Both the position numbers and the translations under genes were made by a program. Below, in pieces: positions 25,197 to 47,533 of a stretch of 64,000 bases of DNA; position 1 is the stretch's first letter; each line of letters opens with the position of its first letter. Below the pieces are notes generated by a model that did no database searches, was not told where the DNA came from, and saw only the letters and a program-made list of their open reading frames with translations. This stretch comes from a virus. The stretch lies in IMG/VR virus record IMGVR_UViG_3300044591_002613. One strand, given 5' to 3'.

Positions 25197-26744
25197 ATGA
25201 GAATTGTAAGCAGAGTAGGCATAGGGAAAAACCCGACCAGCCATCATTTAGATGTTACTGGTTCATCTAATTTTGATTCACAAGTATTTTTTCAAAGTAC
25301 AGCATTTTTTAATGCCAATATCGAGTTAGGCGATACGACTGCAGATCTAATTTCTATGAATGGTCGTATCGATACAAATGTTGAGCCGTCTACAACTCTT
25401 GCTAGGAATCTAGGTTCTTCTTCATTATTTTGGAATAATTCATATACACAAAATTTAATTATTAAGAATGCAGGTTCTATTGAATCTGATGGCGATATTG
25501 TAAATATCGGAACGGTTTCTGCTTCTACAATCAATATTGGTAAAGTTGGCGCAACTGTTAATTTTTACGGAACTGTAAATAAAATCCAGTCAACCGACAC
25601 CGAAGTTTTTGATAAACTGGTAACTTTAAATAAAAACGGTCTAACCGCTTCTGCATTTGGTTCGGGAATTGAAATTGAAGAAAATGCCTCAATTACTGGA
25701 TATATTAAAACATCTGCAGATCGAAACGCATGGCTCTTAAAATCCCCAAATAAATCAGGGATTATTTCTCTAGAACCCGGATCTTCTGCCTTTACCCATA
25801 AAATTCTTTCTCAGGCTTCTGCAGATAGAACCTGGACGCTACCAGATAACACAGACACATTCGTCGGTACTACAAATGCACAAACCGTTGATAATAAAAC
25901 ATTAAATAATACAACTACTACAGGAGCGTTTGTTGCTAACGGCACTGTAACTACGAATGGAACAGTTACCACTAATGGAGATGTAACAGTTAACGGTTCA
26001 ATAACCATTAACGGAACTGCTATTGGCGTGGGTTTTGTTCCGCTAGGTGCGGTAATTGGTACCGTTCCTGCTCTGACTGGCGCTTATTCTTGCACCGCTA
26101 CAACAGCAGCTGATGCTTTTGGATACGTAAGATGTAATGGCCAAGTTATTGCAGACGTAACGAGCCCATTAAATGGTCGTACTATTCCGAATATTAATAA
26201 TGATGTTTATTTAAAAGGTAATACTACTTCTAATGTGGCAGGAGGCAGTAATAGCCACTCCCACACTGTAAATGGCCATACACACACAATTCCAGGCCAT
26301 TTCCATTGGTGGGGCAGCCATTGGTCTAATGATAACTCAAATGATGTTTATAATGACAATGGCGATGGTGGCGGTAATACATATAACGATTCCTACGGTT
26401 ACGGCACTAGAACAAATGACGCTGGCTGGCATAATCATGGAACTGAAAACGTAGCACCAACGGGTTTCCCTAATGAGTCGGGAGACCGAACCGGTAATTA
26501 TTATTACATTTATGGCGACCGAGACCCCCCTTCATCTCGTGATTTTGGAATTGATGGTAACGGTAACCATTGGCATCATGTTCAAAACCATCGCCACTGG
26601 ATCAAAGCAAGGCCAACCCATCGGGTTAATGCTAATATAGATGGTCGATATGATTTTACTTCGGGAAGTACGGGGCCGGGAACTAACTCTGTTTCTTCTG
26701 AGCCAAAATATATTACCACTTTGTATATTATGAGGGTTAAGTGA
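25197..26744 (+). CDS. Tail fibre with C-terminal tail-collar domain and HxH metal-binding needle
   Basis: VPLGAVI...GYVRCNGQ...IPNIN collar; about six HxH motifs; ends EPKYITTLYIMRVK. Confidence 0.82.
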   Translation: MRIVSRVGIGKNPTSHHLDVTGSSNFDSQVFFQSTAFFNANIELGDTTADLISMNGRIDTNVEPSTTLARNLGSSSLFWNNSYTQNLIIKNAGSIESDGDIVNIGTVSASTINIGKVGATVNFYGTVNKIQSTDTEVFDKLVTLNKNGLTASAFGSGIEIEENASITGYIKTSADRNAWLLKSPNKSGIISLEPGSSAFTHKILSQASADRTWTLPDNTDTFVGTTNAQTVDNKTLNNTTTTGAFVANGTVTTNGTVTTNGDVTVNGSITINGTAIGVGFVPLGAVIGTVPALTGAYSCTATTAADAFGYVRCNGQVIADVTSPLNGRTIPNINNDVYLKGNTTSNVAGGSNSHSHTVNGHTHTIPGHFHWWGSHWSNDNSNDVYNDNGDGGGNTYNDSYGYGTRTNDAGWHNHGTENVAPTGFPNESGDRTGNYYYIYGDRDPPSSRDFGIDGNGNHWHHVQNHRHWIKARPTHRVNANIDGRYDFTSGSTGPGTNSVSSEPKYITTLYIMRVK

Positions 26745-26977
26745 AATATACATTCAAGTATCGTAAAAATTTTTTTTGGAAAAAATTTATAGCAGTTGGG
26801 CATAAATATGATCCAGATCAAGACAAAATGATTGTATATTTTGAAGATGGTGGTTTTCAAGAAATTTGTGAATGGAAAAAATGTGAGTTAAAGTTAGGAC
26901 AAGACTGGGTTTTATATAGAAAAAAAATTATGGAAAAAGAAGCCGGTGTTGATGTTAAACTTAACATAGGTGGTTGA
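26741..26977 (+). CDS. Hypothetical protein
   Basis: 78-aa ORF with GTG start overlapping the previous stop. Confidence 0.65.
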   Translation: MKYTFKYRKNFFWKKFIAVGHKYDPDQDKMIVYFEDGGFQEICEWKKCELKLGQDWVLYRKKIMEKEAGVDVKLNIGG

Positions 26978-27314
26978 AAAAAGTATGGTGCGGTTAAAAT
27001 TAAAACCAATGGATGCAATGTATGATCGTCACGGCAATGTTGTCGTCGATCCATTGACAGGTTTGCCTCAAATCGTTACAGAAGAAATAGATATTTTAAT
27101 TGACGATGAAGTCGCGGCAAGTACAATTGCCTATATTGAACAAGTGCGAAAATATCGTGTTTCTCTTAACCCCCCTGTGCCTCTAGATGATTCAAAAGCA
27201 AGACTTTTACAGCAACAGCAGGAAGAAGAAAAACAGAATTTAATCAAACTAGAACAAGAGCGAAAAAAACAGCGATCTGTAGAATTTGAGAAAAATAAAC
27301 ATAAAGAAAAATAA
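26970..27314 (+). CDS. Putative fibre assembly chaperone-like protein (related to 46916..47533)
   Basis: Beta-hairpin N-terminus plus Q/E/K coiled coil; follows a collar fibre gene; start may be 26985. Confidence 0.45.
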   Translation: MVEKSMVRLKLKPMDAMYDRHGNVVVDPLTGLPQIVTEEIDILIDDEVAASTIAYIEQVRKYRVSLNPPVPLDDSKARLLQQQQEEEKQNLIKLEQERKKQRSVEFEKNKHKEK

Positions 27315-27335
27315 TACTTTTAAAATGGACTAATT

Positions 27336-30300
27336 ATGCATATTGTATCAAGGGTCGGCATAGGTAAAATTCCACCATCATCACCTCTGTATTTAGATGT
27401 TGGCGGTGCCGTTAATTTTGATAATACGTTACGTGTAATTGGCCAAACAACTGTTAATTCTTTGATTTCGTCTCAACTATCAACTAATTCTTTAGTTTAT
27501 GAAAGCAGAATTGAAGGCGAACCTAATGTTTTGTTTTCAATAAACCGAGATGGATTTCTTCAATGGGGATTAGGCGGTGCTCTTACCCCCGATACTAACC
27601 TATACCGATCCGCTGTTAGCACATTGCGAACCAGTTCTTCTTTTATTATTGACGGCTCTTTGAGTGTTGGTGACTCAACTGCAGACACAGCAGCGTTTAC
27701 TGCAAGAATTGCTAGCAATTTTGATCCAGCTACTACAAATTTATACAGCTTGGGTCAAGATTTATTACGATGGCAGAATTTATGGTTAAGTGTTAAATTA
27801 ACATCGGTAGATGGATTATTTACCGGAGATTTGCAGGTAGATGGTAACACCATACTCGGCAGTGCAGATACAGACACACTTGCAATTAACGCAAAAGTCT
27901 CTACATCTATTATTCCAGCTTCCGATAATTTAAATGATTTAGGTTCTAACTCGTTTAGATGGAAATCTTTGTGGCTCGGATCAAATTTAAAAGTTGATGG
28001 CAATGTTATTTTGGGAGATCTAAACTCAGACACCGTTGCGATCAACGGCAGGGTTTCAACTTCAATCGAACCTTCAGCAGATAATTTGCATAATTTAGGC
28101 AGCCTAGGACAACGCTGGTCTTCGTTGTGGCTTGGGACTGATCTTCAGGTAGACGGTAATTCTATATTAGGTAGTGCAAACACCGATACGGTTGCTATAA
28201 ATGCACAAATATCCACTTCATTAGTTCCATCTACTGATAATACAAACAATTTAGGCGATTTATCTAAGCGCTGGGCTTCTTTGTGGCTAGGCGCAGATCT
28301 TCAAGTAGACGGCGATACAATTCTTGGTGATTCGCCATCTGATACCGTTACAATAAACGCCGGCTTTGCCTCGCCTCTTAATCCGTCTGTAGATAACTTT
28401 TATGATCTAGGTACATTTGATTATAGATGGAAGCAAGTACACGTAGGGCCTGCTGGCCTTGTTGTTAGAAATGACAATACAGACACAGATAAAGTCTCTT
28501 TGTTTTTTAGTGCCGGAACAGCTACGCTGGGCAGTTCTAGTGCCGTAAATTTAAAAGTTACAACCGGTTTAAATAACGGAATTTTATTAGATACATCTGG
28601 AAACGTCGGAATTAATATTGCCTCCGGACCTCTATCAAAAGTTTTTAATGTAAACGGTACTTCAGATTTTTCCGACACGGCTTATTTTTCTAAGCCTTCC
28701 GGATATAGTCTTGAAGTACAATCTATTGCGGGAATAGCAGGTTCAATAGAATCTTCTAATTTAGAAAAACAATTAAATCTTGGCGTTGGCACCGAAACTG
28801 AGTTTATTAATCTTGGTACCGGATCTTTAACAAAAACGATCAACATTGGCACCGGCTCTGGTAAAACCACAATTAATATTGGCGGTGCTTCAGATATTAT
28901 CAATATTAATGGTACTGTAACAACAACACAAACTATACAATCTTTTGTTTCAGATAAAACTTTTTCTTTAAATGTTGGCGGCCTTAACGGAACTGCACAA
29001 AACAGCGGTCTTCTTGTAGAAGAAGCAAACAGTGTCCTATTAGATATTACCGATCCAACATGGCAGAGCGGAAATACAGTCAGATATTTTGCAATAGATA
29101 CTGGAAATATTGAAATTGGCTCAGTCGTTCTAGTTACTGGATTTTTCAATATTCAAAATAATGGTCAATTCGTTGTCACGAATGTTTCTGCAAATAGTTA
29201 TTTTGAAATTGAAAACGCAAATATTACCGATAGCAGTTTTGACGAAATTGCTTCTGGTCAATGCACTAATCCAATTGTGTCGGCAAAAATTTTGTTGTCA
29301 TCCGATAGATCGGGTTGGGAATTTTATTCTCCGGCAAATATTTCTAATTATTTTAAATTAAGCAATTCAGGAGCAAACGCGGAACTAAAATCTACTATAG
29401 ATGGATTAGTAGTAGTTTCAAATGCTCTTTTGCCAGATGTCGCAAACACTCCGATTGGATCGGCGGCAAAACAATGGGACGCGCATTTATACGATTTAAC
29501 AGTTTATAATGACTGCATTATTGGTAATGCATTAACAGATACATTGAATATTAATTCACTAACTTATTTTAACAATAACATCGACTCAAACGTTATTCCA
29601 GAAATTCATGAAAATTATAATCTAGGAACACCTTTTAACTCTTGGCAATCATTATATGTAAAGAATATTTATTCTAGCTTTTTAAGTCAGCTAAAAGGTT
29701 CAATCTATCTTGGTACAACTGCATCTGATGTTATTTATGCAAACGGTTGGTTTTCAACAAGTTTAATTGCTGTCGATAGTACATATGATATTGGTTCTTT
29801 AGCTACTCCATGGAATAATGTTTTTGCAAATAAATTATTTTTGCAAAACTATACGCCTGGATCTATCACATTCATTAACGATGCATTTGAAATTGCAGAA
29901 GCAAATAGTAAGTTATTCTGGGACATCGCCAACGAAAGATTGTATCTTGGCCAAAATACTGGTTCGTATATCTTAGATATAGCAAAAGCTGGCGCAGATT
30001 CAATCAGATTAAGAAATACAACGGATTCTCAAGCAATTGCATTAAATGCAAACTCCGCATCTACAAAGTTAGAGTTTACTTCTTCTTTGCAATTCGGCGC
30101 AAATACTTATGCAAACGTTGGTAACGGTGGGTCAACAGCAGTACTAGAACTTACCTCCTCACAAGTAAAACTTTTAGGGGCAGTTTCGGTCAACTCTGTA
30201 TCAGTGGGTACTGCTACGTATACAGTGCAATCTACAGACGTAATTATTAATGTTGACACTATGTCTTCTGGTTGTGCAATCACTTTACCTTCTGCAGTAA

Positions 30301-30488
30301 CAAAGCGTTTACTGGTGATTAAAGACATTGGAAATAATGCATCAATGACAGGAAGGTCAATACAGTTATCTCCAGCATCTAACGAATATGTAGAGTTTAA
30401 TGCGATTAATACGGCGTATGTTTTAGATAGAGATGGAGAATCTGTAACGCTACAAAGCGACGGTGTAAATCGCTGGTATATTATTTAA
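27336..30488 (+). CDS. Long tail fibre with 52-aa repeats and C-terminal gp9/gp10-like domain
   Basis: N-terminus MHIVSRVGIGK shared with 25197; repeats DLQVDGN.ILG...DT..IN...S..P..DN...LG....RW..LWLG; C-terminal INVDT...ITLPSA...IKD...ESVTLQSDG.NRWYII. Confidence 0.8.
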   Translation: MHIVSRVGIGKIPPSSPLYLDVGGAVNFDNTLRVIGQTTVNSLISSQLSTNSLVYESRIEGEPNVLFSINRDGFLQWGLGGALTPDTNLYRSAVSTLRTSSSFIIDGSLSVGDSTADTAAFTARIASNFDPATTNLYSLGQDLLRWQNLWLSVKLTSVDGLFTGDLQVDGNTILGSADTDTLAINAKVSTSIIPASDNLNDLGSNSFRWKSLWLGSNLKVDGNVILGDLNSDTVAINGRVSTSIEPSADNLHNLGSLGQRWSSLWLGTDLQVDGNSILGSANTDTVAINAQISTSLVPSTDNTNNLGDLSKRWASLWLGADLQVDGDTILGDSPSDTVTINAGFASPLNPSVDNFYDLGTFDYRWKQVHVGPAGLVVRNDNTDTDKVSLFFSAGTATLGSSSAVNLKVTTGLNNGILLDTSGNVGINIASGPLSKVFNVNGTSDFSDTAYFSKPSGYSLEVQSIAGIAGSIESSNLEKQLNLGVGTETEFINLGTGSLTKTINIGTGSGKTTINIGGASDIININGTVTTTQTIQSFVSDKTFSLNVGGLNGTAQNSGLLVEEANSVLLDITDPTWQSGNTVRYFAIDTGNIEIGSVVLVTGFFNIQNNGQFVVTNVSANSYFEIENANITDSSFDEIASGQCTNPIVSAKILLSSDRSGWEFYSPANISNYFKLSNSGANAELKSTIDGLVVVSNALLPDVANTPIGSAAKQWDAHLYDLTVYNDCIIGNALTDTLNINSLTYFNNNIDSNVIPEIHENYNLGTPFNSWQSLYVKNIYSSFLSQLKGSIYLGTTASDVIYANGWFSTSLIAVDSTYDIGSLATPWNNVFANKLFLQNYTPGSITFINDAFEIAEANSKLFWDIANERLYLGQNTGSYILDIAKAGADSIRLRNTTDSQAIALNANSASTKLEFTSSLQFGANTYANVGNGGSTAVLELTSSQVKLLGAVSVNSVSVGTATYTVQSTDVIINVDTMSSGCAITLPSAVTKRLLVIKDIGNNASMTGRSIQLSPASNEYVEFNAINTAYVLDRDGESVTLQSDGVNRWYII
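27828..28450 (+). repeat. Four tandem 156-bp (52-aa) intragenic repeats, plus a degenerate upstream copy
   Basis: Unit starts at 27828, 27984, 28140 and 28296 (exact 156-bp spacing). Confidence 0.9.
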
Positions 30489-30503: not shown

Positions 30504-30881
30504 ATGGCATATTCAGGAACAGAACGCGGAAAGAAAAAAGCACTGGCTTCGGTCCGTCTTGTGCATCAAGGCGCGGGAGCAGCACAGCTTTATAAAGATT
30601 TAGATTTACCGTCGTCAGTCACTATTAGTACATCGACGTGGCTAGAGCTGTTTAACTCTTCGGCGGCAAAAGTCACTATGGTTGAAATTTTTAGCTCTAG
30701 CGGTGAAGTAGAAATTCTTGCTACTGGTGATTCTGGTTTAGAAACGGTTTTATTTAGAATCATTCCAGGTGGCGGTGGATATGGTCTTATTCAAATAGAT
30801 GCAGCCACTCGTATTTGCTATCGCCCAGAATCTGTTGTTCCCGGTGCTAACAGCGAATTAATTATCAACTTTTTCAACTAA
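30504..30881 (+). CDS. Small virion structural protein (beta-sandwich-like)
   Basis: 125-aa ORF with GGAG RBS in the tail operon. Confidence 0.65.
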   Translation: MAYSGTERGKKKALASVRLVHQGAGAAQLYKDLDLPSSVTISTSTWLELFNSSAAKVTMVEIFSSSGEVEILATGDSGLETVLFRIIPGGGGYGLIQIDAATRICYRPESVVPGANSELIINFFN

Positions 30882-30900
30882 AAAATATCTAAGATATATC

Positions 30901-30937
30901 GTGTTACAATTTAATTGCGGTCACTGGCAAAAGCCAC
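30901..30937 (+). promoter_or_regulatory. Conserved 37-bp leader (TACAAT -10-like box plus TGGC-N4-GCCA hairpin), copy 1
   Basis: 32/37 identical to 39325..39361; both copies precede paralogous fibre genes. Confidence 0.65.
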
Positions 30938-31008: not shown

Positions 31009-32853
31009 ATGAGCAGCGCTATTATATTTAATGGCGATTATCTAAAAGCCCTCAAACCTAAACTGAAACTCAGTGATGCTGCGTATATAGAAACTGGATC
31101 TGCAGATCCTACCACTTTATCATTATCATCGCCAACCGGCTCGCTTTATCTTAGATCAAACGGCGCTCTTTATATTAAATATGCCGCTGCGGCTTCAGCA
31201 TGGGCTCCTGCATTAACTACCGGTACTGGTGGCACTTTAACTAGCACGTCTTTGCAAGACAGTACGGTTTATTTTGTTGATGAAATAGACCCTACTAAAA
31301 AATTGTATTTTCAACTGTCTGGTATTAGCAATAACACATCAATAACTTTAACAATTCCAAACACTAGTGGAACTATTCCATTAGGAACAAGCACAAACGG
31401 ATATGTTACATACTGGAGTGCTACCAACACATTGACCGGCGAGGCGCAACTCGCCTCCACAAGAGGTGGTACCGGTGTTAATAACACAGGTACGCTTACT
31501 TATGGCTCTAATAATATTACATTTACTACATCTGGAGTAACAGCCCTTACTCTGCCAGCCGTAGGAACAGTAGCTACTCTTGCCGGCATCGAAAACTTTG
31601 ATAATAAAACAATTAATTCTTCGTCGATTGGTTCTACAACAGCAAGCTCTGGCGCTTTTACCTATTTAACAGTAAAAGGTACCGGTTCTGCCGGAACTGC
31701 ATATGTTGATTTATTAAACGAATCATCTGCTCCAACTTCTCCAACCGTTGGATATACAAGGTTTTATACCACCGCTGATGTTTTAAATTTAAAAAACGCT
31801 GCTAACGAAGTATTTGCAATTGATTATTCTGGAATAACAGCATCGAGAACGTTAACAGCTCCAAATATATCCTCAACAATTGCCACTTTAGATGGAAACC
31901 AAACCTTTACAGGCGTGCTTTCATTAAGCACAGCAAATGCTGTAAGCCTAGCAATTACCGGTGGACTTAAAGTTGGTAATGTGACGTCTACGGCTGCTAC
32001 AGCGGGTAGCGGTGCAATAAAGTATACAAGCGGCTTTTTGTATTATTCCGATGGCACAAACTGGAATACTATTGCGCAGTATGCAAACTCTATATACCAA
32101 AGCACATCGTTTACGGCTTCAAATAACGTCAATTATTTCGTTGATACTACATCCGTCGCAGTTACTGCTACATTGCCGTCGGGTTCAGTTAATGCGCGTA
32201 TCAGATTTGCCGATGTAAAAGAAAAATGGGGATTGAATAATTTTACAATCACCCCGGCAACTGGTGAAAAAATTGATAACTTAGCAATAAATGAATCTTT
32301 AATCATGGACATTAATGGTTCGTGGATTGAGCTGGCATGGGATTCTACATCCTCTTCTTGGGTTGTAACTGGCTCATTGTCATACGGAACTACACCTTTT
32401 GGTTTTGTTACCCATACTGGAAATAGCTTAGCAACTGATTTACTAATCGGTACTAATGATAATTATGCTCTAGCGTTTGAAACAAACGGATCAGAGCGTA
32501 TGAGAATTACTAATACAGGATTTGTTGGAATTAATACACTTTCTCCGCAAGCGCCACTAGATCTTAGCGGTGGCTTCAAAGGTTCTTATGATTCTTACGC
32601 TGTAAATGCAAATTTAAATAAATATCACCATTTTGTGGTTGCTACCGCCGCCATCACTTTAAATTTACCAACATTAACATCAAACGATGCAGGGTTTACT
32701 CTTTATATTAAAAGAGTTACAGCGACTGGAATTGTAACTATAAATCCCGGTGTTGGTGTCACAATTGATGGCGCTAGTTCATGGCCATTAACATCAAATT
32801 ACGAATCAGTTAAATTAGTTTGGCGCGGTTCTACTGATTGGAGTATTTTCTGA
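31009..32853 (+). CDS. Mosaic fibre/adaptor protein A with two gp9/gp10-like domains
   Basis: First ~250 aa closely paralogous to 39388; internal YFVDTT..AVTATLP...GEKIDN and C-terminal ITLNLP...TIDG...ESVKLV domains. Confidence 0.78.
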   Translation: MSSAIIFNGDYLKALKPKLKLSDAAYIETGSADPTTLSLSSPTGSLYLRSNGALYIKYAAAASAWAPALTTGTGGTLTSTSLQDSTVYFVDEIDPTKKLYFQLSGISNNTSITLTIPNTSGTIPLGTSTNGYVTYWSATNTLTGEAQLASTRGGTGVNNTGTLTYGSNNITFTTSGVTALTLPAVGTVATLAGIENFDNKTINSSSIGSTTASSGAFTYLTVKGTGSAGTAYVDLLNESSAPTSPTVGYTRFYTTADVLNLKNAANEVFAIDYSGITASRTLTAPNISSTIATLDGNQTFTGVLSLSTANAVSLAITGGLKVGNVTSTAATAGSGAIKYTSGFLYYSDGTNWNTIAQYANSIYQSTSFTASNNVNYFVDTTSVAVTATLPSGSVNARIRFADVKEKWGLNNFTITPATGEKIDNLAINESLIMDINGSWIELAWDSTSSSWVVTGSLSYGTTPFGFVTHTGNSLATDLLIGTNDNYALAFETNGSERMRITNTGFVGINTLSPQAPLDLSGGFKGSYDSYAVNANLNKYHHFVVATAAITLNLPTLTSNDAGFTLYIKRVTATGIVTINPGVGVTIDGASSWPLTSNYESVKLVWRGSTDWSIF

Positions 32854-37921: not shown

Positions 37922-37925
37922 AAAG

Positions 37926-38621: not shown

Positions 38622-38628
38622 GGATATT

Positions 38629-39387: not shown

Positions 39388-42039
39388 ATGAGCGGCGCTG
39401 TTATATTTAATGGCGATTATGTCAAGGCGTTAAAATCTAAGCTAAAACTTGGCGAAGCCGCTTATATTGAAACTGGATCTGCAGATCCTACTACTCTGTC
39501 CCTTAGCTCTCCACTTGGCTCATTATACTTAAGATCAAACGGTATAGTTTACATTAAATACGCAGCCGGTGTTTCAGCATGGGCCCCTGCATTAACTACT
39601 GGCACCGGCGGTACATTAACATCTACAGCTCTGCAAGACAGCACTGTTTATTTTGCGGATGAAACGGATCCCACCAAAAAACTGTTTTTCCAACTATCTG
39701 GAATTGATAATAACACATCAAGAACTTTAACAGTTCCAAATACTAGCGGCACAATTACTCTTGGCACAGCATCTACCAATCAGGTTGCTTATTGGAACAG
39801 CACTAATACGTTAGCTGGAGAAGCTCAATTATCACCAACAAGAGGTGGTACCGGAACTAGTAACACTGGTTTATTTAGTTATGGCTCTAATAACATTACG
39901 TTAACGACAACCGCTTCAACAAGTCTAACTCTGCCCACCTCTGGCACATTAGCTACTCTAGCCGGTGCAGAAGCTTTAACTAATAAAACTATCAACTCAT
40001 CTTCGATTGGTGCAACCACTGCAAGTTCCGGTGCATTCACCTTTCTTACATTAAAAGGCACAGGCGTTGCGGGCACCGCATATTTCGATTTCTTGAATGA
40101 ATCAGTAACACCCTCGTCCCCGCTTTCCGGCTATACACGAATTTATTTTAAATCGGACGGTTCTCTTTATTACTTGAGTTCTGCAGCAGTTGAAAAGAAA
40201 ATTGGTGATATTGCACACCCAACTACCGGATCAACATTTGAGACTGGTGCGTTTAATGCATTAATGACTGGTACAAATAATACAGCGTTTGGTGTTGCAT
40301 CTTTAGACTCAGTAACTTCCGGCGTGCAAAATACTGCCTTCGGCACAAATGCACTGGCTGCCTTGACAATTGGAACAAATAACACTTCTGTTGGTTATAA
40401 TGCGTTAACAACTTTAACAGATGGTTCTGATAATACAGCAATTGGCTGGCGCTCGATGCGGCTTGTTACTAGTGGTTATAGCAACACAGCAGTTGGTAAC
40501 CAGTCCTCCGAATTAATGACAACCGGATCAGATAACACTGCGGTTGGTTATTTTGCTTTAAGAAATGTTACAGATGGATTTGGCAATGTTGCAATCGGTT
40601 CTGGCGCTGGTCTTTTATTAGGCGGCTACAGTAATAACAACGTATGCATCAATACAGGCGGGGCATTAACTCCCGGTTCTGTTTTAAGCGGCACAGTTAC
40701 CATCGGAAAAACAGCAGCAGGTGGTGGTTCTTACGCCACGGCTGATAACCAATTTGTATTAGGCGATTCTGGCCATCTTTATAGATTCCCTGGTATTGCG
40801 GAAACTTCTTTAATTCTTGGCCCTACCGGAACATTGGCAGGAAATGGTGGCGAGCTTAGATTTAGAGAGCTAGCAGCAAATGGCACAAACTCAGTTGCGT
40901 TTAAAGCTGCAGATTCTATCATCGCAAATGTTACATGGACACTGCCAGCCGCTGACGGCACAAACGGCCAAGCATTAATTACAAATGGTTCAGGCACACT
41001 GCGATGGGCAGAGGCCACTAACACAATTGTAGAAGTTACTCAAAATTCGCATGGATTCACAACTGCCGATATTGGCAGACCGTTATACTTAAACGGATCT
41101 ACGTATACCTACGCAATTGCTAATGCGACAAACACAGCCGAAGTAGCTGGATTAATATACAAAATCGTAGATACAAATACATTCTTAGTTTGTTTAAGTG
41201 GTGAAGTTGCTTCAGTTGGGGCAAACTTAATTGAAGGCGGTGGATCGCTAGTAGCCGGCGAAACATATTTTCTTTCACCGACAACTGCCGGAAAAATTAC
41301 TACATCAGATCCTACAGTAGTTGGGCAAGTATCTAAGCCTATTGGCGTTGCTCGCTCTACAACTGCGTTTGAATTTTTCAACATGCGCGGTTCAGTTGTT
41401 GGTGGTGCTAATGCCAGAACGCAGCTTTCGTTATCTAATAATGCAATAACAACAATTCAAGTAGCCTCTGCTTACGATGCCGGCGAATTAACTGGCTGGG
41501 TAACTATTGACGCAACTACTGATTATCGTTTTTATGTTCAAGCCCAGTTCGCCAAAAATGGCGCTGGGACTGACTATAACATTTCATATCAAACCATGGG
41601 CGATGTTCCGCCACTTGGATTTAGCGTTACTATCACTGCCGCTGGTTTAATACAAATCACTCTGCCAAATATTGCGGGGTTTGTTAATGCGGGCGTTAAC
41701 TTTGCATTAAATGCTCCAGCTGTTGGCGCAACTTTTCCGTTAACAATTGGCGGAAATAATATAGTAGCAAATTATAGAGCAGTTACAGGAACGTATACAA
41801 TCACACCATCTGATTACTATGTATCTGCTTCTGGTGCTGCTGGATACACAATCAGTTTGCCCGCAACATCCTCCGTATCCGGTAAAATATTTATTGTAAA
41901 AAGCAGACTAAATGCTGGCCAAGTTTTGACAATTGATGCCAATGGTTCGGAAACTATTGATGGTTCTTTAACGGTTGGTCTATTCCAAAACGAGTCTTGC
42001 TATTTAGTCAGCAATGGCACATCTTGGGAGATGTTCTAA
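39388..42039 (+). CDS. Mosaic fibre protein C (A-type N-terminus, B-type middle, gp10-like C-terminus)
   Basis: MSGAVIFNGDY N-terminus as in 31009; HPTTGSTFE, NTAxG repeats, ELRFRELAANG and AEVAGL blocks as in 34241; C-terminal TISLP...TIDG...WEMF. Confidence 0.82.
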   Translation: MSGAVIFNGDYVKALKSKLKLGEAAYIETGSADPTTLSLSSPLGSLYLRSNGIVYIKYAAGVSAWAPALTTGTGGTLTSTALQDSTVYFADETDPTKKLFFQLSGIDNNTSRTLTVPNTSGTITLGTASTNQVAYWNSTNTLAGEAQLSPTRGGTGTSNTGLFSYGSNNITLTTTASTSLTLPTSGTLATLAGAEALTNKTINSSSIGATTASSGAFTFLTLKGTGVAGTAYFDFLNESVTPSSPLSGYTRIYFKSDGSLYYLSSAAVEKKIGDIAHPTTGSTFETGAFNALMTGTNNTAFGVASLDSVTSGVQNTAFGTNALAALTIGTNNTSVGYNALTTLTDGSDNTAIGWRSMRLVTSGYSNTAVGNQSSELMTTGSDNTAVGYFALRNVTDGFGNVAIGSGAGLLLGGYSNNNVCINTGGALTPGSVLSGTVTIGKTAAGGGSYATADNQFVLGDSGHLYRFPGIAETSLILGPTGTLAGNGGELRFRELAANGTNSVAFKAADSIIANVTWTLPAADGTNGQALITNGSGTLRWAEATNTIVEVTQNSHGFTTADIGRPLYLNGSTYTYAIANATNTAEVAGLIYKIVDTNTFLVCLSGEVASVGANLIEGGGSLVAGETYFLSPTTAGKITTSDPTVVGQVSKPIGVARSTTAFEFFNMRGSVVGGANARTQLSLSNNAITTIQVASAYDAGELTGWVTIDATTDYRFYVQAQFAKNGAGTDYNISYQTMGDVPPLGFSVTITAAGLIQITLPNIAGFVNAGVNFALNAPAVGATFPLTIGGNNIVANYRAVTGTYTITPSDYYVSASGAAGYTISLPATSSVSGKIFIVKSRLNAGQVLTIDANGSETIDGSLTVGLFQNESCYLVSNGTSWEMF

Positions 42040-42755
42040 TGGCATTTTTAGGTATTGCACCAACCGGAACAGTATTACCGTTTGCCGGTTCAGTAGCACC
42101 AGAAGGCTGGGCATTGTGCGATGGTTCGGCTATCAGTCGCACAATATATACAAAACTATTTGTCGTTATTTCAACTACATATGGAGTTGGCGATAACTCA
42201 TCAACATTTAATGTTCCTGATATGCGCGGTGTTTATCCGCGTGGCGCTGGCACAAACGGCACAGCGAATTATGGTGGAGTAACTGGACATACTCCAGCGG
42301 GTGGAGCATTGGCTGCAAAAGGTGGACAAAAGACCGCTAAGAATGGATTAACAAATGCATCTGCTACAACAACTTCTTCTGGTAACAGGAATCAATTTGA
42401 TAGAACTAGCGGAACGGTGAGTTCTGATCATGTTCATGGAACTGGAAATGCCGGAGGCCATTCACACTTTGTAGCTTATGGTAATTTTGGTGGCGATGAT
42501 TTTAACTTGATTGACGGCACTTACGCAGAACGTTTACAAATGGCAGATGCACCAGATAATGATATTGGAGTGTATGCAGATGGTGTTGGTGATCATAATC
42601 ACGGCAATACAGGGGGTATATCTGCTAACCACACCCATACGGTTACATATGACAGTACGTTTTCTGTTTCTGGAACTACGCCAGCACAAACAATTACTGG
42701 AGATGCCGAAACCACACCCGCGTTTTTAGCCCTTAATTATATTATTAAGTTATAA
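42039..42755 (+). CDS. Tail-collar short fibre (triplet 1, member 1)
   Basis: TAATG coupling to the upstream gene; collar motif; four HxH; closest to 32855. Confidence 0.9.
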   Translation: MAFLGIAPTGTVLPFAGSVAPEGWALCDGSAISRTIYTKLFVVISTTYGVGDNSSTFNVPDMRGVYPRGAGTNGTANYGGVTGHTPAGGALAAKGGQKTAKNGLTNASATTTSSGNRNQFDRTSGTVSSDHVHGTGNAGGHSHFVAYGNFGGDDFNLIDGTYAERLQMADAPDNDIGVYADGVGDHNHGNTGGISANHTHTVTYDSTFSVSGTTPAQTITGDAETTPAFLALNYIIKL

Positions 42756-42764
42756 GAGGATCAA

Positions 42765-43565
42765 ATGGCAAACGCAGCATTACTGGCAACATTAGGAGAC
42801 CAAACTTCGTCGCAAGCTGCGGGCGCAATTTCTGTATTAATGCCAGCAGGTGTTATATTGCCATATGGCGGTGGCACTGCGCCAACAGGCTGGTTACTGT
42901 GTGATGGCTCAGCAATCAGCCGAACTACTTATGCAAGTTTATTTGCTGCAATTGGAACATCGCACGGCTATGGTGATAATTCTACCACTTTCAATTTGCC
43001 CGATTTTCGCGGTAGATTTATGCGTGGTGTAGACGGAACAGCTAATAGAGATCCCGATAAAGGGACTAGAACATCAGCCGCAACCGGTGGTAACACTGGC
43101 AATAACGTCGGTAGTGCGCAAACAAACGCTACTGCTAAGAACGGATTAACAGCAAGTGCAGCTTCGGTGTCAACTTCTGTCAGTGGCGCAAAAAACCAAA
43201 TGAATGGAACTTCTGGAGGTCAAAGTGCTAGCCATTCACATGGAATTGGTACTGATGGATGGCATGATCACATGCAATATGTCACCGCAAATCCAGGCTT
43301 AGGACCATATAACACCAGGCATGACTATAATTATGATGCAAATAATCTTCAAATATACGATCATGTTCGCACAGGTGGTGGAGGCAGCCATTCCCACGGT
43401 GGTGGAACAGGCGGTCAAAGCGTAGACCACTCCCACTCTTGGGATTTTGGTGCGACAACTTTTTCTGCATCAGGGACAACTCCAGCACAAACTGTTACAG
43501 TAGGTAACGGAGATAATGAAACAAGGCCATTAAATATAAACGTTAACTATATTATCAAGGTATAG
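42765..43565 (+). CDS. Tail-collar short fibre (triplet 1, member 2)
   Basis: Collar motif, four HxH, ends NETRPLNINVNYIIKV. Confidence 0.9.
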   Translation: MANAALLATLGDQTSSQAAGAISVLMPAGVILPYGGGTAPTGWLLCDGSAISRTTYASLFAAIGTSHGYGDNSTTFNLPDFRGRFMRGVDGTANRDPDKGTRTSAATGGNTGNNVGSAQTNATAKNGLTASAASVSTSVSGAKNQMNGTSGGQSASHSHGIGTDGWHDHMQYVTANPGLGPYNTRHDYNYDANNLQIYDHVRTGGGGSHSHGGGTGGQSVDHSHSWDFGATTFSASGTTPAQTVTVGNGDNETRPLNINVNYIIKV

Positions 43566-43568
43566 AAA

Positions 43569-44357
43569 ATGTCTAACAGTGCAATTTCTGGACTTACAAT
43601 TATCGATTTTCCAGCAGGAATGATTATGCCATATGCCGGCACATCAACGCCGGCAGGTTGGTTGGAGTGTAATGGTGCAGAAGTTGATGTTTCTGCATAT
43701 CCAACTCTCGCCGCTGCTCTTGGAACTACTTGGAATAATGCTAAAAACCCTTTAACTGGCGCAACATATGCAAACCCGGCAGCTGGTAGGTTTCGTTTAC
43801 CAGACTTACGAGGTTCGTTTTTACGAGGATCTTCTGGCGGAGCTAATAACGCGCAAGGCGTTGCAACAGGATTAGCAGAGTTCCAAGGAAATAAAACAGC
43901 TAAAAATGGATTAACAGCAACAGCCGCATCAGTAACAACTTCTGTGAGTGGTTTAAAAAATCAATTAAATGGAAGTTCTGGCGGTATGTCTGCTAATACA
44001 ACACACGGACATGGAATTTCAGATCCCGGCCATGGCCATGCGCACGGTATCGATACAACCCAAGGATATGCAGTTGGTACGCCTATTTCTGCAACAAGCG
44101 GAGCTACTGGTTTTCAAGGAGGTACGTTTTCTGATCGAGGTGCTACAACAACTGGATCAGGATTTGTGAGAAACGGCGGCACAGGAATTTCAGTTAATGG
44201 ATCTGCCGATTTAAACCACTCCCACTCGTGGGATTTTGGCGGTTCTGCAACTTTTTCTGCATCAGGGACAACTCCAGCACAAACTGTTTCTGTGGGAAAT
44301 GGTGATGCCGAAACAAGACCTGATGCAGTTGGTGTTAGATATTTGATTAAAATTTAA
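43569..44357 (+). CDS. Tail-collar short fibre (triplet 1, member 3)
   Basis: PAGMIMPYAG..TPAGWLECNG...FRLPDLRG; HxH motifs; ETRP...YLIKI. Confidence 0.9.
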   Translation: MSNSAISGLTIIDFPAGMIMPYAGTSTPAGWLECNGAEVDVSAYPTLAAALGTTWNNAKNPLTGATYANPAAGRFRLPDLRGSFLRGSSGGANNAQGVATGLAEFQGNKTAKNGLTATAASVTTSVSGLKNQLNGSSGGMSANTTHGHGISDPGHGHAHGIDTTQGYAVGTPISATSGATGFQGGTFSDRGATTTGSGFVRNGGTGISVNGSADLNHSHSWDFGGSATFSASGTTPAQTVSVGNGDAETRPDAVGVRYLIKI

Positions 44358-44366: not shown

Positions 44367-44702
44367 ATGGCATTTTATACATCTAAATTTAAACCAACGC
44401 CAGTATTCATGAAGGATTTTTACCTTCAATATTACACAGTTGTTATTACATCTAGTGTAGCTCTAACAGATTTGCCAGTAAATTATCTTTATATTTGCAA
44501 CTCGGCATCAGCAATCACAATCACTCTGCCTTCGGCAGTTAATAAAGATGGTTGCGTTTTATTTTTTAAAAATGTAAATACTGGTAATGTAACTGTTGAT
44601 GGCAATGGGTCGCAAACAATTGATGGACAGTTAACACAAATTTTGCCACAATATTCTTCATTCGAGCTTGTGGCATTTAATGGGAACTGGTTTATTAAAT
44701 GA
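44367..44702 (+). CDS. Stand-alone gp9/gp10-like adaptor domain
   Basis: ITITLPSAV..DG..L.FKN...GNVTVDGNGSQTIDG...F.LV..NGNWFI, the same module that ends 27336, 31009 and 39388. Confidence 0.7.
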   Translation: MAFYTSKFKPTPVFMKDFYLQYYTVVITSSVALTDLPVNYLYICNSASAITITLPSAVNKDGCVLFFKNVNTGNVTVDGNGSQTIDGQLTQILPQYSSFELVAFNGNWFIK

Positions 44703-45433
44703 CGTTAATGAACTTTGTACCAACCGGAACAATCCTTCCAACTGGAGAATCAACAATTCCAGCTGGTTGGCTATTGTGTGATGGATCTGCAGTTAGTAGA
44801 ACTATATATGCAGATTTATTTGGCATGATTGGTACAAACTGGGGAAACGGTGACGGCACCACTACTTTCCATCTACCCGATTTGCGGGGTCGATTTTTAA
44901 GAGGCCGCGACGGTGGAATAGGTCGAGATCCAGACAGATCAACAAGAGTAGCTGCTAATCCCGGTGGCAACGCTGGTGATAATGTTGGCAGCATAGAAGA
45001 CCACGCTTATAAAACTCACAACCATGGCGTTAGTGTTGCCGGCGGTACTACCGGCGGCGAAAGTAATGGCCATATCCATGGTAGTGGTTGGGTATCGCAC
45101 GATCATGGCCATTATATGCCGGCGCAAGGAAATCATTCGCACTGGCATAATGATGCATATTTTGCCGAAGCTGGAGCTGGAAACCAAGGTATTCGCGGCG
45201 AAGGTTATGGCTCTGACTGGGACAACCGTCCACATTATCGATGGATTACATGGAATTGGGCCGGCTGGCATGGACACAGTATGGATGGTAGAAATACAGA
45301 CCACAGGCATTGGGTTGGCGGTCGCGATGCAGGTCATACACACGGAGTGACTTCTTCTGTTTCGGTAACAAATAGTGGCGGTAATGAAACGCGACCCAAA
45401 AATATAATTTTACATTACATGATAAAAGTATGA
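44699..45433 (+). CDS. Tail-collar short fibre (triplet 2, member 1), about seven HxH
   Basis: Collar motif; tip DWDNRPHY and NETRPKNI resemble T4 gp12 DWDNRSY / NETRPWNI. Confidence 0.9.
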   Translation: MTLMNFVPTGTILPTGESTIPAGWLLCDGSAVSRTIYADLFGMIGTNWGNGDGTTTFHLPDLRGRFLRGRDGGIGRDPDRSTRVAANPGGNAGDNVGSIEDHAYKTHNHGVSVAGGTTGGESNGHIHGSGWVSHDHGHYMPAQGNHSHWHNDAYFAEAGAGNQGIRGEGYGSDWDNRPHYRWITWNWAGWHGHSMDGRNTDHRHWVGGRDAGHTHGVTSSVSVTNSGGNETRPKNIILHYMIKV

Positions 45434-46170
45434 CGTTTTTTAAAACAGTTCCACCAGGTACAATTCTTCCTTTTGCTGGCACCGCTGCTCCAGCTGGTTG
45501 GCTATTGTGTGATGGATCTGCAGTTAGTAGAACTATATATGCAGTATTATTTTCAAAAATTTCTACAAATTTTGGTAATGGAGATGGTTCTACAACATTT
45601 CATTTGCCAGATATGCGTGGAAGGTTTGAACGATCACGAGATCATGGTACAAATAGAGACCCCGATAAAATAACACGCACGGCTGCAAATCCTGGCGGTA
45701 ACACTGGTGATAATGTTGGTAGTGCCCAAGACCATAACTACGCATCTCATGGCCATACTAATACTAATAGTATTTCGACTGGTGGAGAAAGTGTAGACCA
45801 TAACCATGGCGATTCGGCTTGGGAATCTGCATATGGTAACCATGCACATGGTGTAAATGGAAATGGAGATCATCAACACGGTTCCGATGACGCATACTAT
45901 TCAGAAAATTATAATGGCGGTGGTGGCTACTATGGTTCAAACCACGGCGGTGATTTTGATAATAGTGCAGACTCTACATCTCAGACTGCCAATAATGCGG
46001 GTTGGCACAACCATGGTACTGATGGTGTTTGGCAGGACCATTACCACGCAACCGGTACTGTTTCTGCATGGCATACTCATTCAGTTCCATTTTCATTAAC
46101 GATTAATACAGATGGTGGAAATGAAACAAGGCCAATAAACGCTAATATTAATTATGTGATAAAAATATGA
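45430..46170 (+). CDS. Tail-collar short fibre (triplet 2, member 2), seven HxH
   Basis: ATGA coupling; collar; DAYYSE...DFDN tip. Confidence 0.9.
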   Translation: MTFFKTVPPGTILPFAGTAAPAGWLLCDGSAVSRTIYAVLFSKISTNFGNGDGSTTFHLPDMRGRFERSRDHGTNRDPDKITRTAANPGGNTGDNVGSAQDHNYASHGHTNTNSISTGGESVDHNHGDSAWESAYGNHAHGVNGNGDHQHGSDDAYYSENYNGGGGYYGSNHGGDFDNSADSTSQTANNAGWHNHGTDGVWQDHYHATGTVSAWHTHSVPFSLTINTDGGNETRPINANINYVIKI

Positions 46171-46895
46171 CCGTATTTAATACATTACCCCCAGGAATAG
46201 TTGTTCCGTTTGGTGGCTCGTCTGCACCACCAGGCTGGCTGCTGTGCGACGGTTCTCCGGTAAGCAGGACTGTATACCAAAATCTTTTTTTATCAATCGG
46301 AACAGTTTGGGGAAATGGAGACGGCTCTACAACATTTCATCTACCCGATTTACGCGGTCGGTTTTTACGCGGAAAAGATGGCGGCATAGGAAGAGATCCA
46401 GACCGAACTACAAGAACTGCCGCAAATCCTGGCGGTAACACTGGTGATAATGTTGGTAGTGTTCAAGATAATGCGCATGGACACGATCATGCAAATACCA
46501 GATCAGCCACCTCGGCTACTCCAAGTGTAAACCATACACATGGAAATACTGGGTGGATTAGTAATAATCATGGCCATTACATTTACGGAAATAATGACCA
46601 TACGCATTGGCGTTCAGATGCTCATTTTAGCTCTCCGCCGAGCGCAAGTTTATTTGGCACAAATCAAAGATACGACTCTGATAATGGACGATATACTCAT
46701 GGAATTAACTCAAATACAACCGGAAACCATGAGCACTGGACAGCTGGAATTGACACAAATCACCAACATAATAGCGGTGGCAGATCTGCAGATCATACTC
46801 ACGTGGCTACAGCCGGTGTTACGATCAATAGTAATGGCACAACAACCGAAACTAGACCTTTAAATGCAAACGTAAATTATATTATAAAAATATAA
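46167..46895 (+). CDS. Tail-collar short fibre (triplet 2, member 3), about seven HxH
   Basis: ATGA coupling; collar; DAHFS...DSDN tip. Confidence 0.9.
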   Translation: MTVFNTLPPGIVVPFGGSSAPPGWLLCDGSPVSRTVYQNLFLSIGTVWGNGDGSTTFHLPDLRGRFLRGKDGGIGRDPDRTTRTAANPGGNTGDNVGSVQDNAHGHDHANTRSATSATPSVNHTHGNTGWISNNHGHYIYGNNDHTHWRSDAHFSSPPSASLFGTNQRYDSDNGRYTHGINSNTTGNHEHWTAGIDTNHQHNSGGRSADHTHVATAGVTINSNGTTTETRPLNANVNYIIKI

Positions 46896-46915
46896 TAAAT
46901 GGTTAGGAGCGTAAT

Positions 46916-47533
46916 ATGAAAATTATTATTAAAAAAGGCGAGCCTCTTTGGAACTCTGATGGTTTTCATGTTTTAGATGACAGAGGTTTTGCAGTCGTTA
47001 GCGAAGAACTTCATAAAGAAATAATCATTACAAATCCAGAAGCGGTCGAAAGAGTAAAAAAATCTTTGCGCCGTGACCGCTGGGATGAAATTTATGTTTT
47101 GGCATTAAATAGCACAGAACAATTTTTGCAAGAAAAGCAAGAGCAACTTCTTGATTACGAAGAAGAGCAAAAAAAAATTGAAACTGAACAATTACAAAAA
47201 TCAGAAGAACAATTAAAAATGGAACTTCAAGTGCGCCAGCAAGAACTCGAAGCTCAACGATTGGCATTTGAAATTCAACGTCGCGCAGAACAAGCAGAGC
47301 GTGATGCAGAAATGGCTCGTATACTCCAGGAACAAAAAGAAAAAGACGAAAAAGCCATAGCTGATTCCGAAGTTGAGATGGCTCGTCTTCGTGCTCAAAC
47401 CGAACCAATTATTGCAGAGCGCAAAGCTCGAGAAAAGGCTGAAGCTGAAGCCGCTGCCGCTGAAAAACTAGCACAAGAAGAGCTAATCAAGCAGCTATTA
47501 GAACGAATTGATTCTCTTGAAAAAAGTAAATAA
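46916..47533 (+). CDS. Coiled-coil protein, putative fibre assembly chaperone
   Basis: N-terminus similar to 26970; long E/Q/K/A coiled coil; follows the collar array. Confidence 0.5.
   Translation: MKIIIKKGEPLWNSDGFHVLDDRGFAVVSEELHKEIIITNPEAVERVKKSLRRDRWDEIYVLALNSTEQFLQEKQEQLLDYEEEQKKIETEQLQKSEEQLKMELQVRQQELEAQRLAFEIQRRAEQAERDAEMARILQEQKEKDEKAIADSEVEMARLRAQTEPIIAERKAREKAEAEAAAAEKLAQEELIKQLLERIDSLEKSK

What the first reader, a model, noticed from the sequence alone, without database searches (positions are those of the whole stretch)
25197..47533. Branched multi-fibre adsorption system: six gp9/gp10-like docking domains and eight gp12-like collar needles
Seen: a ~90-aa module (VDT...ITLP...I.D...TI...E.IDG...L......L.....W) occurs six times: ~30200-30488, ~32090-32370, ~32580-32853, ~34280-34570, ~41770-42039, and as the stand-alone gene 44367. 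Three times a gene ending in this module is directly followed by tail-collar gene(s) with 1-bp spacing or stop/start overlap (32855, 42039, 44699). Eight collar/HxH proteins are present. Established: T4 gp10 domains dock gp11 and gp12, and gp10-like domains build branched tailspike complexes in Kuttervirus CBA120 and G7C. Inference: a tree-like receptor-binding network with metal-bound needles rather than enzymatic tailspikes, plus C1q and other small tips, for multivalent or broad-range adsorption.
Basis: partly seen in the sequence, partly recalled or inferred. Interest (0 to 1): 0.8.

Follow-up and report, generated by a model that had tools for sequence, protein, structure and literature searches.

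The report
Split phage fibres with capped joints
This is the host-recognition gene cluster of an uncultured lake phage, in which several fibre proteins end in a small gp9/gp10-type cap domain and are each followed by short needle-tip genes that probably plug onto that cap; this would be a new use for a domain so far regarded as a spacer.

Summary
The observation largely holds. Six homologous ~90-aa modules lie at the stated places, with leave-one-out E-values of 1e-4 to 4e-15. Three genes that end in a module are followed by tail-collar genes with a 1-bp gap or a start/stop overlap. There are seven collar proteins, not eight. The eighth "HxH" protein (25197) has no collar domain, and 46916 is a coiled coil.

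The module is gp9/gp10-like, but it is the XD1 type (T4 gp10 residues 47-146, CBA120 TSP4 residues 80-175, Z 10-12). It is not the XD2/XD3 type that docks partners in T4, CBA120 and RaK2. Published work treats XD1 as a spacer.

Here four of the six modules are C-terminal caps with a free distal face, and the collar proteins have no shaft. Three matched pairs of cap tail and collar head are kept in three related genomes, one of them on a different carrier. Natural single-chain fusions place the module 9 residues before the collar, the same spacing as in the split pairs.

My best reading (0.55) is three two-piece fibres, not a branched tree. Runs of three collar genes may form one heterotrimeric needle, as published for a virophage. 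Docking itself was not tested. I rate it a new variant of a known kind, of moderate interest.

The parts
25197..26744 (+). g25197, a 515-aa fibre protein with six HxH motifs (aa 354-465) and no collar domain. Its first 27 aa are 65% identical to the N-terminus of g27336.
27336..30488 (+). g27336, a 1050-aa carrier fibre that ends in XD1-type module M1 (nt 30186-30485). The next gene is not a collar gene.
30504..30881 (+). g30504, a 125-aa all-beta protein conserved at 78-91% in relatives. Its fold could not be assigned.
31009..32853 (+). g31009, a 614-aa carrier. It has anchor A (aa 1-257, 76% identical to g39388), internal module M2 (nt 32074-32370), a triple-beta-helix stalk repeat (aa ~481-522), and C-terminal module M3 (nt 32587-32850, junction type A).
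32855..33514 (+). Collar needle A (219 aa). It has no shaft: the collar domain starts at aa 9. It starts one base after the g31009 stop.
33558..34229 (+). g33558, 223 aa, matching only phrog_1644. It shows an HxD...H pattern, but an oxygenase assignment was not confirmed.
34241..36937 (+). g34241, 898 aa, with N-terminal module M4 (nt 34283-34567, 45% identical to M2) and a tailspike-like body (aa 130-731, 47% identical to g39388).
36952..37416 (+). C1q-domain tip protein (154 aa).
37421..39315 (+). Three small putative tip proteins: g37421 (166 aa, with an N-terminus like that of the C1q protein), and the paralogues g37926 and g38629 (49% identical).
39388..42039 (+). g39388, an 883-aa carrier with anchor A, a tailspike-like body and C-terminal module M5 (nt 41770-42036, junction type B).
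42039..44357 (+). Collar run B: three collar/HxH genes (42039-42755, 42765-43565, 43569-44357). The first overlaps the carrier's stop codon (TAATG).
44367..44702 (+). g44367, a stand-alone 111-aa protein: a 22-aa head plus module M6 (nt 44433-44696, junction type C).
44699..46895 (+). Collar run C: three collar/HxH genes (44699-45433, 45430-46170, 46167-46895). All are joined by ATGA overlaps, are 51-54% identical to each other, and carry 7-9 HxH motifs each.
46916..47533 (+). g46916, a 205-aa E/K/Q-rich coiled-coil protein. It is not a collar protein.
30896..30937 (+). A 42-nt leader containing ACAATTTAAT. It is repeated at 39320-39361 (83%), and its core recurs at 33536. It marks the starts of the cassettes.

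Best explanation
The stretch is the variable receptor-binding cassette of an uncultured freshwater myovirus of about 165-170 kb. It lies directly downstream of the baseplate wedge genes. Six copies of an XD1-type beta-sandwich are built into its fibres; this is the fold of the T4 gp9 middle domain, T4 gp10 XD1 and CBA120 TSP4 XD1. Four copies are C-terminal caps (g27336, g31009, g39388 and the stand-alone g44367). In XD1 the chain enters on one face of the trimer and leaves on the opposite face, so a C-terminal cap has a free distal face on the three-fold axis. Three caps are each followed by translationally coupled genes for shaftless gp12/gp37-type collar-needle proteins, in which the collar domain starts at residue ~9. 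I propose that each collar trimer sits coaxially on the distal face of its cap, guided by a short head peptide specific to its junction type. The result is a two-piece fibre that is split exactly between cap and collar. A run with one collar gene would give a homotrimer. The two runs of three positionally conserved paralogues may each give a single heterotrimeric needle, or else three alternative tips for one cap. The outcome is about three needle-tipped fibres, plus the HxH fibre g25197 and the C1q and other small tips. It is not a tree with eight needles. Shown here: module homology and fold, collar homology, gene syntax and its conservation, and natural fusions. Inferred: trimer states, physical docking, metal binding and receptor binding.
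For: The module is an XD1 fold: profile hit to gp10 49-144 at E 2e-8 and Z 10-12 to TSP4 80-175, gp9 65-163 and gp10 47-146. The collar proteins match the T4 gp12 receptor-binding region (1ocy, E 2e-13), including the C-terminal ETRPxNxxxNYIIK strand, and start with the collar domain. The syntax 'cap, then collar' is kept in related IMG/VR genomes despite different gene counts. G002 has 6 modules and 7 collars. The complete 169-kb G001 has 7 modules and 3 single collars, and each collar lies directly after a C-terminal module. Three cognate junction types are kept in all three genomes..DWSIF|MAYLPFP..SWEMF|MAFLGIAP and ..NWFIK|MTLMNFVP. In G001 the type-B cap and head sit on a different, g34241-like carrier. 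Single-chain fusions of module and collar exist: L034 has 9 residues between the module's W and the collar's P-x-G, against 9-10 in the split pairs, and P0165 and P0178 have a 26-aa linker. Starts overlap stops (TAATG, ATGA) or lie 1 bp apart. PMC8825819 states that the XD1 termini lie on opposite faces of the trimer. PMC12724248 shows that three consecutive short collar/gp37-tip genes form a 1:1:1 heterotrimer in a virophage. Positional orthology of the triplet members holds between the window and G002.
Against: No interface was modelled or measured. In T4 and CBA120, XD1 binds no trimeric partner (PMC8825819, PMC10253068). Outside this lineage the rule does not hold. In seven unrelated genes ending in the module, six have a downstream gene on the contig and none of the six is a collar gene. 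Among 80 collar loci in IMG/VR, only this lineage shows module gene followed by collar gene. Adjacent DNA is co-inherited anyway, so conserved junctions could reflect linkage alone. One C-terminal cap (g27336) has no collar partner. The C1q and other small tips follow a carrier that has no cap. The heads of the second and third collars of run B differ in length (26 and 14 aa).
Confidence: 0.55

Rival explanations
1. The XD1 modules are only structural spacers or distal lectin-like knobs of the fibres. The collar proteins attach elsewhere, for example to the greatly enlarged baseplate wedge proteins. The adjacency reflects operon order and duplication of whole cassettes.
For: XD1 is described as a spacer in T4 and CBA120 (PMC8825819, PMC10253068). 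The same fold binds glycans in StcE and CpaA, and it lies at or near the C-terminus of the Pa223 capsid spike (198-289 of 294) and of the Solidus gp83 tailspike. The module family is very large (40,957 representative proteins). It mostly occurs in tandem arrays, 70 of the top 150 hits end in it, and it also occurs in a bacterial protein next to a Por_Secre_tail gene. The genes after C-terminal modules in other lineages are not collar genes. g31009 and g39388 are duplicated cassettes, leader included.
Against: Collar proteins without a shaft need some platform, and none other is evident. Natural fusions place the module directly before the collar at the same spacing. The type-B cap and head moved together onto another carrier in G001. 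Stop/start overlaps occur at every cap-collar junction.
Confidence: 0.25
2. One reading: a truly branched, tree-like complex in which multi-site carriers hold several different needles and small tips at once, as TSP4 does in CBA120 or gp528 in RaK2.
For: There are many tips (7 collar proteins, C1q and 3-4 other small proteins) for few carriers. g31009 has two modules. gp10-like domains are used for branching in CBA120, G7C and RaK2 (PMC8825819, PMC10253068).
Against: All six modules align to XD1, not to the XD2/XD3 docking jellyrolls. phrog_958 (gp10) matches the carriers only over positions 49-143. An internal XD1 cannot offer a three-fold face, because linkers leave both faces (PMC8825819). 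Each collar run maps to exactly one C-terminal cap in three genomes.
Confidence: 0.1
3. The collar proteins are not virion parts that dock on the fibres. Each triplet acts as a free or separately anchored heterotrimeric adhesin. Alternatively, several of the genes are redundant spares kept for recombination.
For: Short MdpB-type collar proteins with no known anchor are common (and the short forms). The DSLV2 heterotrimer is predicted to sit directly on capsomers through its collar domain (PMC12724248). Single-contig joints between paralogous collar genes occur in lake metagenomes (weak).
Against: The genes lie inside a late structural operon between baseplate and fibre genes. All frames are intact and kept position by position in relatives. 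Translational coupling to the caps is present.
Confidence: 0.07

Closest known systems
CBA120 TSP1-4 branched tailspike complex (TSP4-N domains AD-XD1-XD2-XD3; PDB 7REJ, 7RFO, 7RFV), and the G7C gp66/gp63.1 complex
   Same: Both are myovirus or podovirus multi-receptor-binding clusters in which gp10-like domains occur in carrier proteins. The module here superposes on TSP4 residues 80-175 at Z 12.1.
   Different: In CBA120 the partners dock on XD2 and XD3, which lie at the N-terminus of the carrier, and XD1 binds nothing (PMC8825819). Here only XD1-type modules are found, mostly at C-termini. The partners are shaftless collar needles, not tailspikes with D1/D2 heads.
T4 baseplate periphery: gp10 (XD1-3) with gp11 and gp12, and gp9 with gp34
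   Same: The module matches gp10 47-146 and gp9 65-163. The collar proteins match the gp12 C-terminal collar and receptor-binding domain, including its last strand.
   Different: T4 gp12 is one 527-aa chain with a long shaft whose N-terminus binds gp10 XD2. Here the needle is cut down to collar plus tip (219-266 aa), and it is encoded directly after an XD1 cap.
DSLV2 virophage tripartite tail proteins (PMC12724248)
   Same: Both have three consecutive genes of similar length for short collar/gp37-tip proteins. In DSLV2 these were shown to co-purify 1:1:1 as a heterotrimeric needle. Positional conservation of the three members is seen in both systems.
   Different: The DSLV2 heterotrimer is predicted to sit on capsomers. 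Here the runs follow an XD1 cap on tail fibres, there are two triplets plus a singleton, and a relative (G001) has only singletons.
RaK2/phiK64-1 (Alcyoneusvirus) adsorption complex (PMC10253068)
   Same: Both are large phages with about ten receptor-binding genes in one cluster and gp10-like domains used as connectors.
   Different: The RaK2 connectors are of the XD2/XD3 type and the branches are depolymerases. The authors explicitly exclude XD1 from partner binding.
T4 gp37 tip (PDB 2XGF) and gp12 tip (PDB 1OCY) metal-binding needles
   Same: HxH motifs are repeated along the tip (2-9 per collar protein, six in g25197). The alignment profile of the collar proteins (A2, which also held the unrelated g46916) hits 1ocy at E 2e-13 and 2xgf at E 1e-3.
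   Different: Metal binding was not tested. The tips between the constant collar and the last strand are highly diverged.

Membership tests
XD1 fold (T4 gp9 middle domain, gp10 XD1, TSP4 XD1; Pfam PF07880 T4_gp9_10_N) | Nine-stranded beta-sandwich that superposes on XD1 of solved structures | tested here: met
   The AF2 model of the weakest copy has pLDDT 86. VIA Z-scores are 12.1 (7rej 80-175), 11.9 (9f4b gp10 47-147), 10.6 (1qex 65-163) and 10.2 (5iv5 gp10 47-146). Unrelated rows start at Z 3.4.
XD1 fold (T4 gp9 middle domain, gp10 XD1, TSP4 XD1; Pfam PF07880 T4_gp9_10_N) | Sequence-profile similarity to gp10 or TSP4 over the XD1 range | tested here: met
   Profile A1 against the PDB gives gp10 49-144 at E 2e-8 and TSP4-N 98-175 at E 4e-6. 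phrog_958 matches positions 49-143 in two copies.
XD1 fold (T4 gp9 middle domain, gp10 XD1, TSP4 XD1; Pfam PF07880 T4_gp9_10_N) | Pfam PF07880 score above the gathering cut-off | tested here: inconclusive
   No window protein reaches E 0.01 for PF07880. More distant family members found with the module profile do reach it (P0029 48 bits, P0081 30 bits).
gp10-type docking domains XD2/XD3 | Beta-jellyroll of ~60-70 aa with N- and C-termini on the same face, aligning to gp10 or TSP4 XD2/XD3 | tested here: not met
   All alignments fall in the XD1 ranges. No match to TSP4 181-335 or to gp10 beyond residue 147 was found for any module or carrier.
Phage tail collar proteins (PF07484), gp12-type | Collar domain above the Pfam cut-off, plus the returning C-terminal strand ETRPxNxxxNYIIK | tested here: met
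   Seven ORFs score 63-83 bits against a cut-off of 24. The C-terminal strand aligns to 1ocy 179-196. ORFs 46916 and 25197 do not match.
gp12/gp37 metal-binding needle | HxH motifs in register along a trimeric tip that coordinate Zn or Fe | not testable with these tools
   The motifs are present: 2-9 per collar protein and 6 in g25197. Metal occupancy needs a structure or spectroscopy.
Branched receptor-binding complex of the CBA120 or RaK2 kind | A carrier with two or more trimeric docking platforms that bind different partners at once | tested here: inconclusive
   No XD2/XD3 domains were detected. Only g31009 has two modules, and one of them is internal. Remote platforms in the carriers or in the giant wedge proteins cannot be excluded.
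Heterotrimeric collar needle of the DSLV2 kind | Three consecutive, positionally conserved collar paralogues of similar length that assemble 1:1:1 | tested here: inconclusive
   The gene arrangement and positional orthology are met for two runs. Assembly was not tested. G001 has singletons at the same sites.
C1q/TNF-like tip | Pfam C1q above the cut-off | tested here: met
   g36952 scores 27.4 bits for PF00386 against a cut-off of 23.7.

The most novel reading that the evidence does not exclude
XD1, so far called a spacer of unknown function, is a general coaxial plug-and-socket connector that lets phages cut fibres into exchangeable pieces. On this reading, C-terminal XD1 caps hold heterotrimeric collar needles through type-specific head peptides. 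The orphan cap of g27336 would also hold the orphan N-terminal XD1 of g34241, as a tandem array split between two genes.
Probability: 0.2. Interest if true: 0.7.

Novelty: new variant of a known kind. Interest (0 to 1): 0.5.

Why it matters
Clusters of several receptor-binding proteins decide phage host range, and the rules for joining their parts are known for only a few phages: T4, CBA120, G7C and RaK2. In all of these the joints are XD2/XD3 jellyrolls, and the role of XD1 is left open. This lineage gives a concrete, cheaply testable case. The stand-alone 111-aa cap and its three coupled collar genes could be co-expressed to test whether XD1 is a joint. If it is, this would explain why tens of thousands of fibre proteins end in this domain. 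It would also offer a small natural adaptor for swapping needle tips. The cluster is a second place, besides a virophage, to test for heterotrimeric collar needles.

Tried and rejected
- Megablast of the whole stretch against 50,697 phage records found no match. The DnaE-like polymerase is only ~25% identical to cultured phages, so no annotated relative could be used.
- The search for related loci with the six-module alignment failed because no block was conserved enough.
- No whole genome is held for the window.
- phmmer of the carriers g27336 and g39388 and of g25197 against the PDB found nothing useful. The g31009 hit to Bdellovibrio MAT fibres concerns the stalk repeat between its two modules, not the modules themselves.
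- g30504, the gene after the fourth cap: the Atlas, Foldseek and the wide VIA search gave no clear relative, with a best Z of 5.1. Its role as tip or chaperone stays open.
- Seven unrelated proteins ending in the module were looked up. Six have a downstream gene on the contig and none of these is a collar gene; one contig ends too soon. The syntax is therefore specific to this lineage.
- No listed sequencing run holding the stretch is on record as RNA.
- The joints seen in lake metagenome contigs each rest on a single contig with short sides, so they are only weak hints.
- The oxygenase reading of g33558 was not confirmed by Pfam, NCBIfam or PDB phmmer.
- No tRNA genes were found in the window.
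- The motif ACAATTTAAT with one mismatch is no more frequent than chance. Only the exact copies in intergenic gaps are notable.

Full report
**Context.** The window carries one long plus-strand train of late genes. A DnaE-like polymerase lies upstream on the minus strand (7211-10150). It is followed by baseplate genes: 10820 (phrog_975), the 2325-aa gp6-like wedge protein at 12377 (phrog_6), and the 1182-aa protein at 19351. The stretch in question comes next. Megablast finds no cultured relative, and the polymerase is about 25% identical to phage DnaE-like enzymes. An identical protein is recorded on a 164-kb contig. Close relatives exist in IMG/VR, among them a 169-kb genome rated complete (G001) and a 79-kb fragment (G002). 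Lake and freshwater metagenomes from several studies hold the stretch. This is therefore the adsorption cassette of an uncultured freshwater myovirus of about 165-170 kb.

**The observation.** Aligned, the six stated segments are only 14-25% identical, with L-P and W invariant. The similarity is nevertheless far beyond chance. A profile built from any five copies finds the sixth as the best non-training hit in the six-frame translation of the window, at E 1.2e-4 to 3.5e-15. Unrelated frames start at 0.02-0.1. A profile built from 540 instances of the domain in other proteins scores all six at 5e-19 to 7e-26 and finds no seventh copy.

The junctions are as described. There is a TGA stop, one base, then ATG at 32855. 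The sequence is TAATG at 42039. It is ATGA at 44699, 45430 and 46167.

The count of collar proteins is seven. These are 32855, 42039, 42765, 43569, 44699, 45430 and 46167, with PF07484 at E 1e-17 to 2e-23. ORF 46916 is a coiled-coil protein. The likely eighth "HxH" protein is g25197, which has six HxH motifs but no collar domain.

**What the module is.** The six-copy profile hits T4 gp10 residues 49-144 (E 2e-8), CBA120 TSP4-N residues 98-175 (E 4e-6), and more weakly T4 gp34 residues 97-164. An AF2 model of the weakest copy (pLDDT 86) superposes on:
- TSP4 80-175 (Z 12.1)
- KP1 gp10 47-147 (Z 11.9)
- a domain of the Solidus gp83 tailspike (Z 11.7)
- T4 gp9 65-163 (Z 10.6)
- T4 gp10 47-146 (Z 10.2)
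- the C-terminus of the Pa223 capsid spike (Z 9.5)
- CpaA (Z 9.0) and StcE (Z 6.9)

The next rows fall to Z 3.4. This includes every XD1 neighbour listed in Table 2 of PMC8825819 (T4 gp9, T4 gp10, CpaA and StcE). That paper and PMC10253068 state that the docking domains of gp10, TSP4, TSP2, G7C gp66 and RaK2 gp528 are XD2 and XD3, a different jellyroll. They also state that XD1 binds no trimeric partner, because its N- and C-termini lie on opposite faces, and that it seems to act as a spacer.

The family is very large. There are 40,957 representative proteins at E 1e-3 or better, mostly with 2-7 tandem copies and a median linker of 7 aa. Seventy of the top 150 end in the module. Some reach Pfam PF07880. 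One lies in a bacterial genome next to a Por_Secre_tail gene.

**What the collar proteins are.** An alignment profile of the collar proteins (A2, which also held the unrelated g46916) matches the T4 gp12 receptor-binding fragment (1ocy, E 2e-13), both at the collar domain and at the last strand ETRPxNxxxNYIIK. It matches the gp37 tip weakly. The collar domain begins at residue ~9 in five of the seven proteins, and after 14 and 26 residues in the other two. These are therefore gp12-like tips with no shaft. HxH motifs number 2-9 per protein.

**Link between caps and collars.** Four modules are C-terminal; each protein ends 3 residues after the invariant W. In relatives the gene numbers differ, yet every collar run starts directly after a C-terminal module. 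G002 has runs of 1, 3 and 3 collar genes. G001 has three single collar genes.

Three junction types recur in all three genomes, each with its own cap tail and collar head:
- Type A: DWSIF | MAYLPFP
- Type B: SWEMF | MAFLGIAP
- Type C: NWFIK | MTLMNFVP

In G001 the type-B cap and head sit on a carrier with a g34241-like N-terminus and body. They therefore moved as a unit.

Natural single-chain versions exist. An IMG/VR ORF (L034, 324 aa) has the module followed by the collar, with 9 residues between W and the collar's P-x-G. The split pairs have 9-10. Two ~1240-aa fibre proteins (P0165, P0178) have the same order with a 26-aa linker. Together with the opposite-face topology of XD1, this makes coaxial stacking of a collar trimer on a C-terminal cap the simplest reading.

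No interface was tested. The rule is also lineage-specific. In seven unrelated genes ending in the module, six have a downstream gene on the contig and none of the six is a collar gene. Among 80 collar loci, only this lineage shows the two-gene syntax.

**Branching and the number of needles.** I found no XD2/XD3-type platform. Each collar run maps to exactly one cap. A virophage with three consecutive short collar/gp37-tip genes was shown to make one 1:1:1 heterotrimer (PMC12724248). The members of the two triplets here are kept position by position between the window and G002. Those of run C are joined by ATGA overlaps and have similar heads. The system may therefore hold three needles on three caps rather than seven or eight needles on a tree. 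Alternative homotrimeric tips competing for one cap remain possible.

**Mosaic structure.**
- g31009 and g39388 share a 42-nt leader and a 257-aa anchor (76% identical).
- g34241 and g39388 share a tailspike-like body (47% identical).
- The N-terminal module of g34241 is 45% identical to the internal module of g31009.
- g25197 and g27336 share their first 27 residues.

One cap (g27336) has no collar partner. The gene after it, g30504, is a conserved beta-protein of unassignable fold. The N-terminal module of g34241 has no anchor. These two orphans might pair like a split tandem array. That is speculation.

**Verdict.** The docking precedent applies to a different domain, branching is unsupported, and the needle count is too high. 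I rate it a new variant of a known kind, of moderate interest. Other first-stage notes of this scan describe the same syntax, the triplets and the duplicated cassette on this DNA.

Noticed in passing
window 30896-30937, 33536-33545, 39320-39361: Exact ACAATTTAAT copies lie in the only sizeable intergenic gaps of the fibre region. They fall within a 42-nt leader shared at 83% upstream of g31009 and g39388, which also contains a small hairpin (ACTGGC-AAA-GCCAC). This may be a late promoter or leader that marks cassette starts. A fourth exact copy lies inside a gene at 58240.
   Followed up: partly
window 33558-34229: A 223-aa protein inside the fibre locus shows an HxD...H pattern that another first-stage note reads as a 2OG-Fe(II) oxygenase. 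Only phrog_1644 ('minor coat protein') matches it. Pfam, NCBIfam and PDB phmmer give nothing.
   Followed up: partly
window 46916-48535: Directly after the last collar gene come an E/K/Q-rich coiled-coil protein (205 aa) and a weak AAA/P-loop ATPase (333 aa). Both are conserved in G001 and G002, the ATPase at 83-86% identity. They may be assembly factors for the fibres.
   Followed up: no
window 35773/41348, 42073/33062, 44821/45571: Single contigs from other lake metagenomes join paralogous segments: g34241 body to g39388 body, collar 42039 to collar 32855, and collar 44699 to collar 45430. The first join resembles the g34241/g39388 hybrid carrier seen in G001. Support is weak, because each is one contig with short sides.
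   Followed up: partly
window 32449-32574 (g31009 aa ~481-522): Between the two modules of g31009 lies a short repeat (ERMRItNtGfVGInT..P) that matches the triple-beta-helix stalk repeats of Bdellovibrio MAT fibres (8ond, 8ojn, 8oml).
   Followed up: partly
L093 3001-5286 (P0101): The XD1-type module also ends a 761-aa protein in a bacterial genome, next to a gene with a Por_Secre_tail (T9SS) signal. The family is therefore not confined to phage fibres.
   Followed up: no
L007 (G001) reverse strand, ORF of 1637 aa: In the complete relative G001, the g34241-like module and body are fused behind about 1040 further residues. In the same genome the g31009 anchor occurs a second time, in a 495-aa protein without a cap that lies two genes upstream of the stand-alone cap.
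   Followed up: partly
window 12377-22899: The baseplate wedge proteins are very large (2325 and 1182 aa), with only short matches to phrog_6, phrog_1608 and phrog_1980. Their inserted domains were not examined for docking platforms.
   Followed up: no
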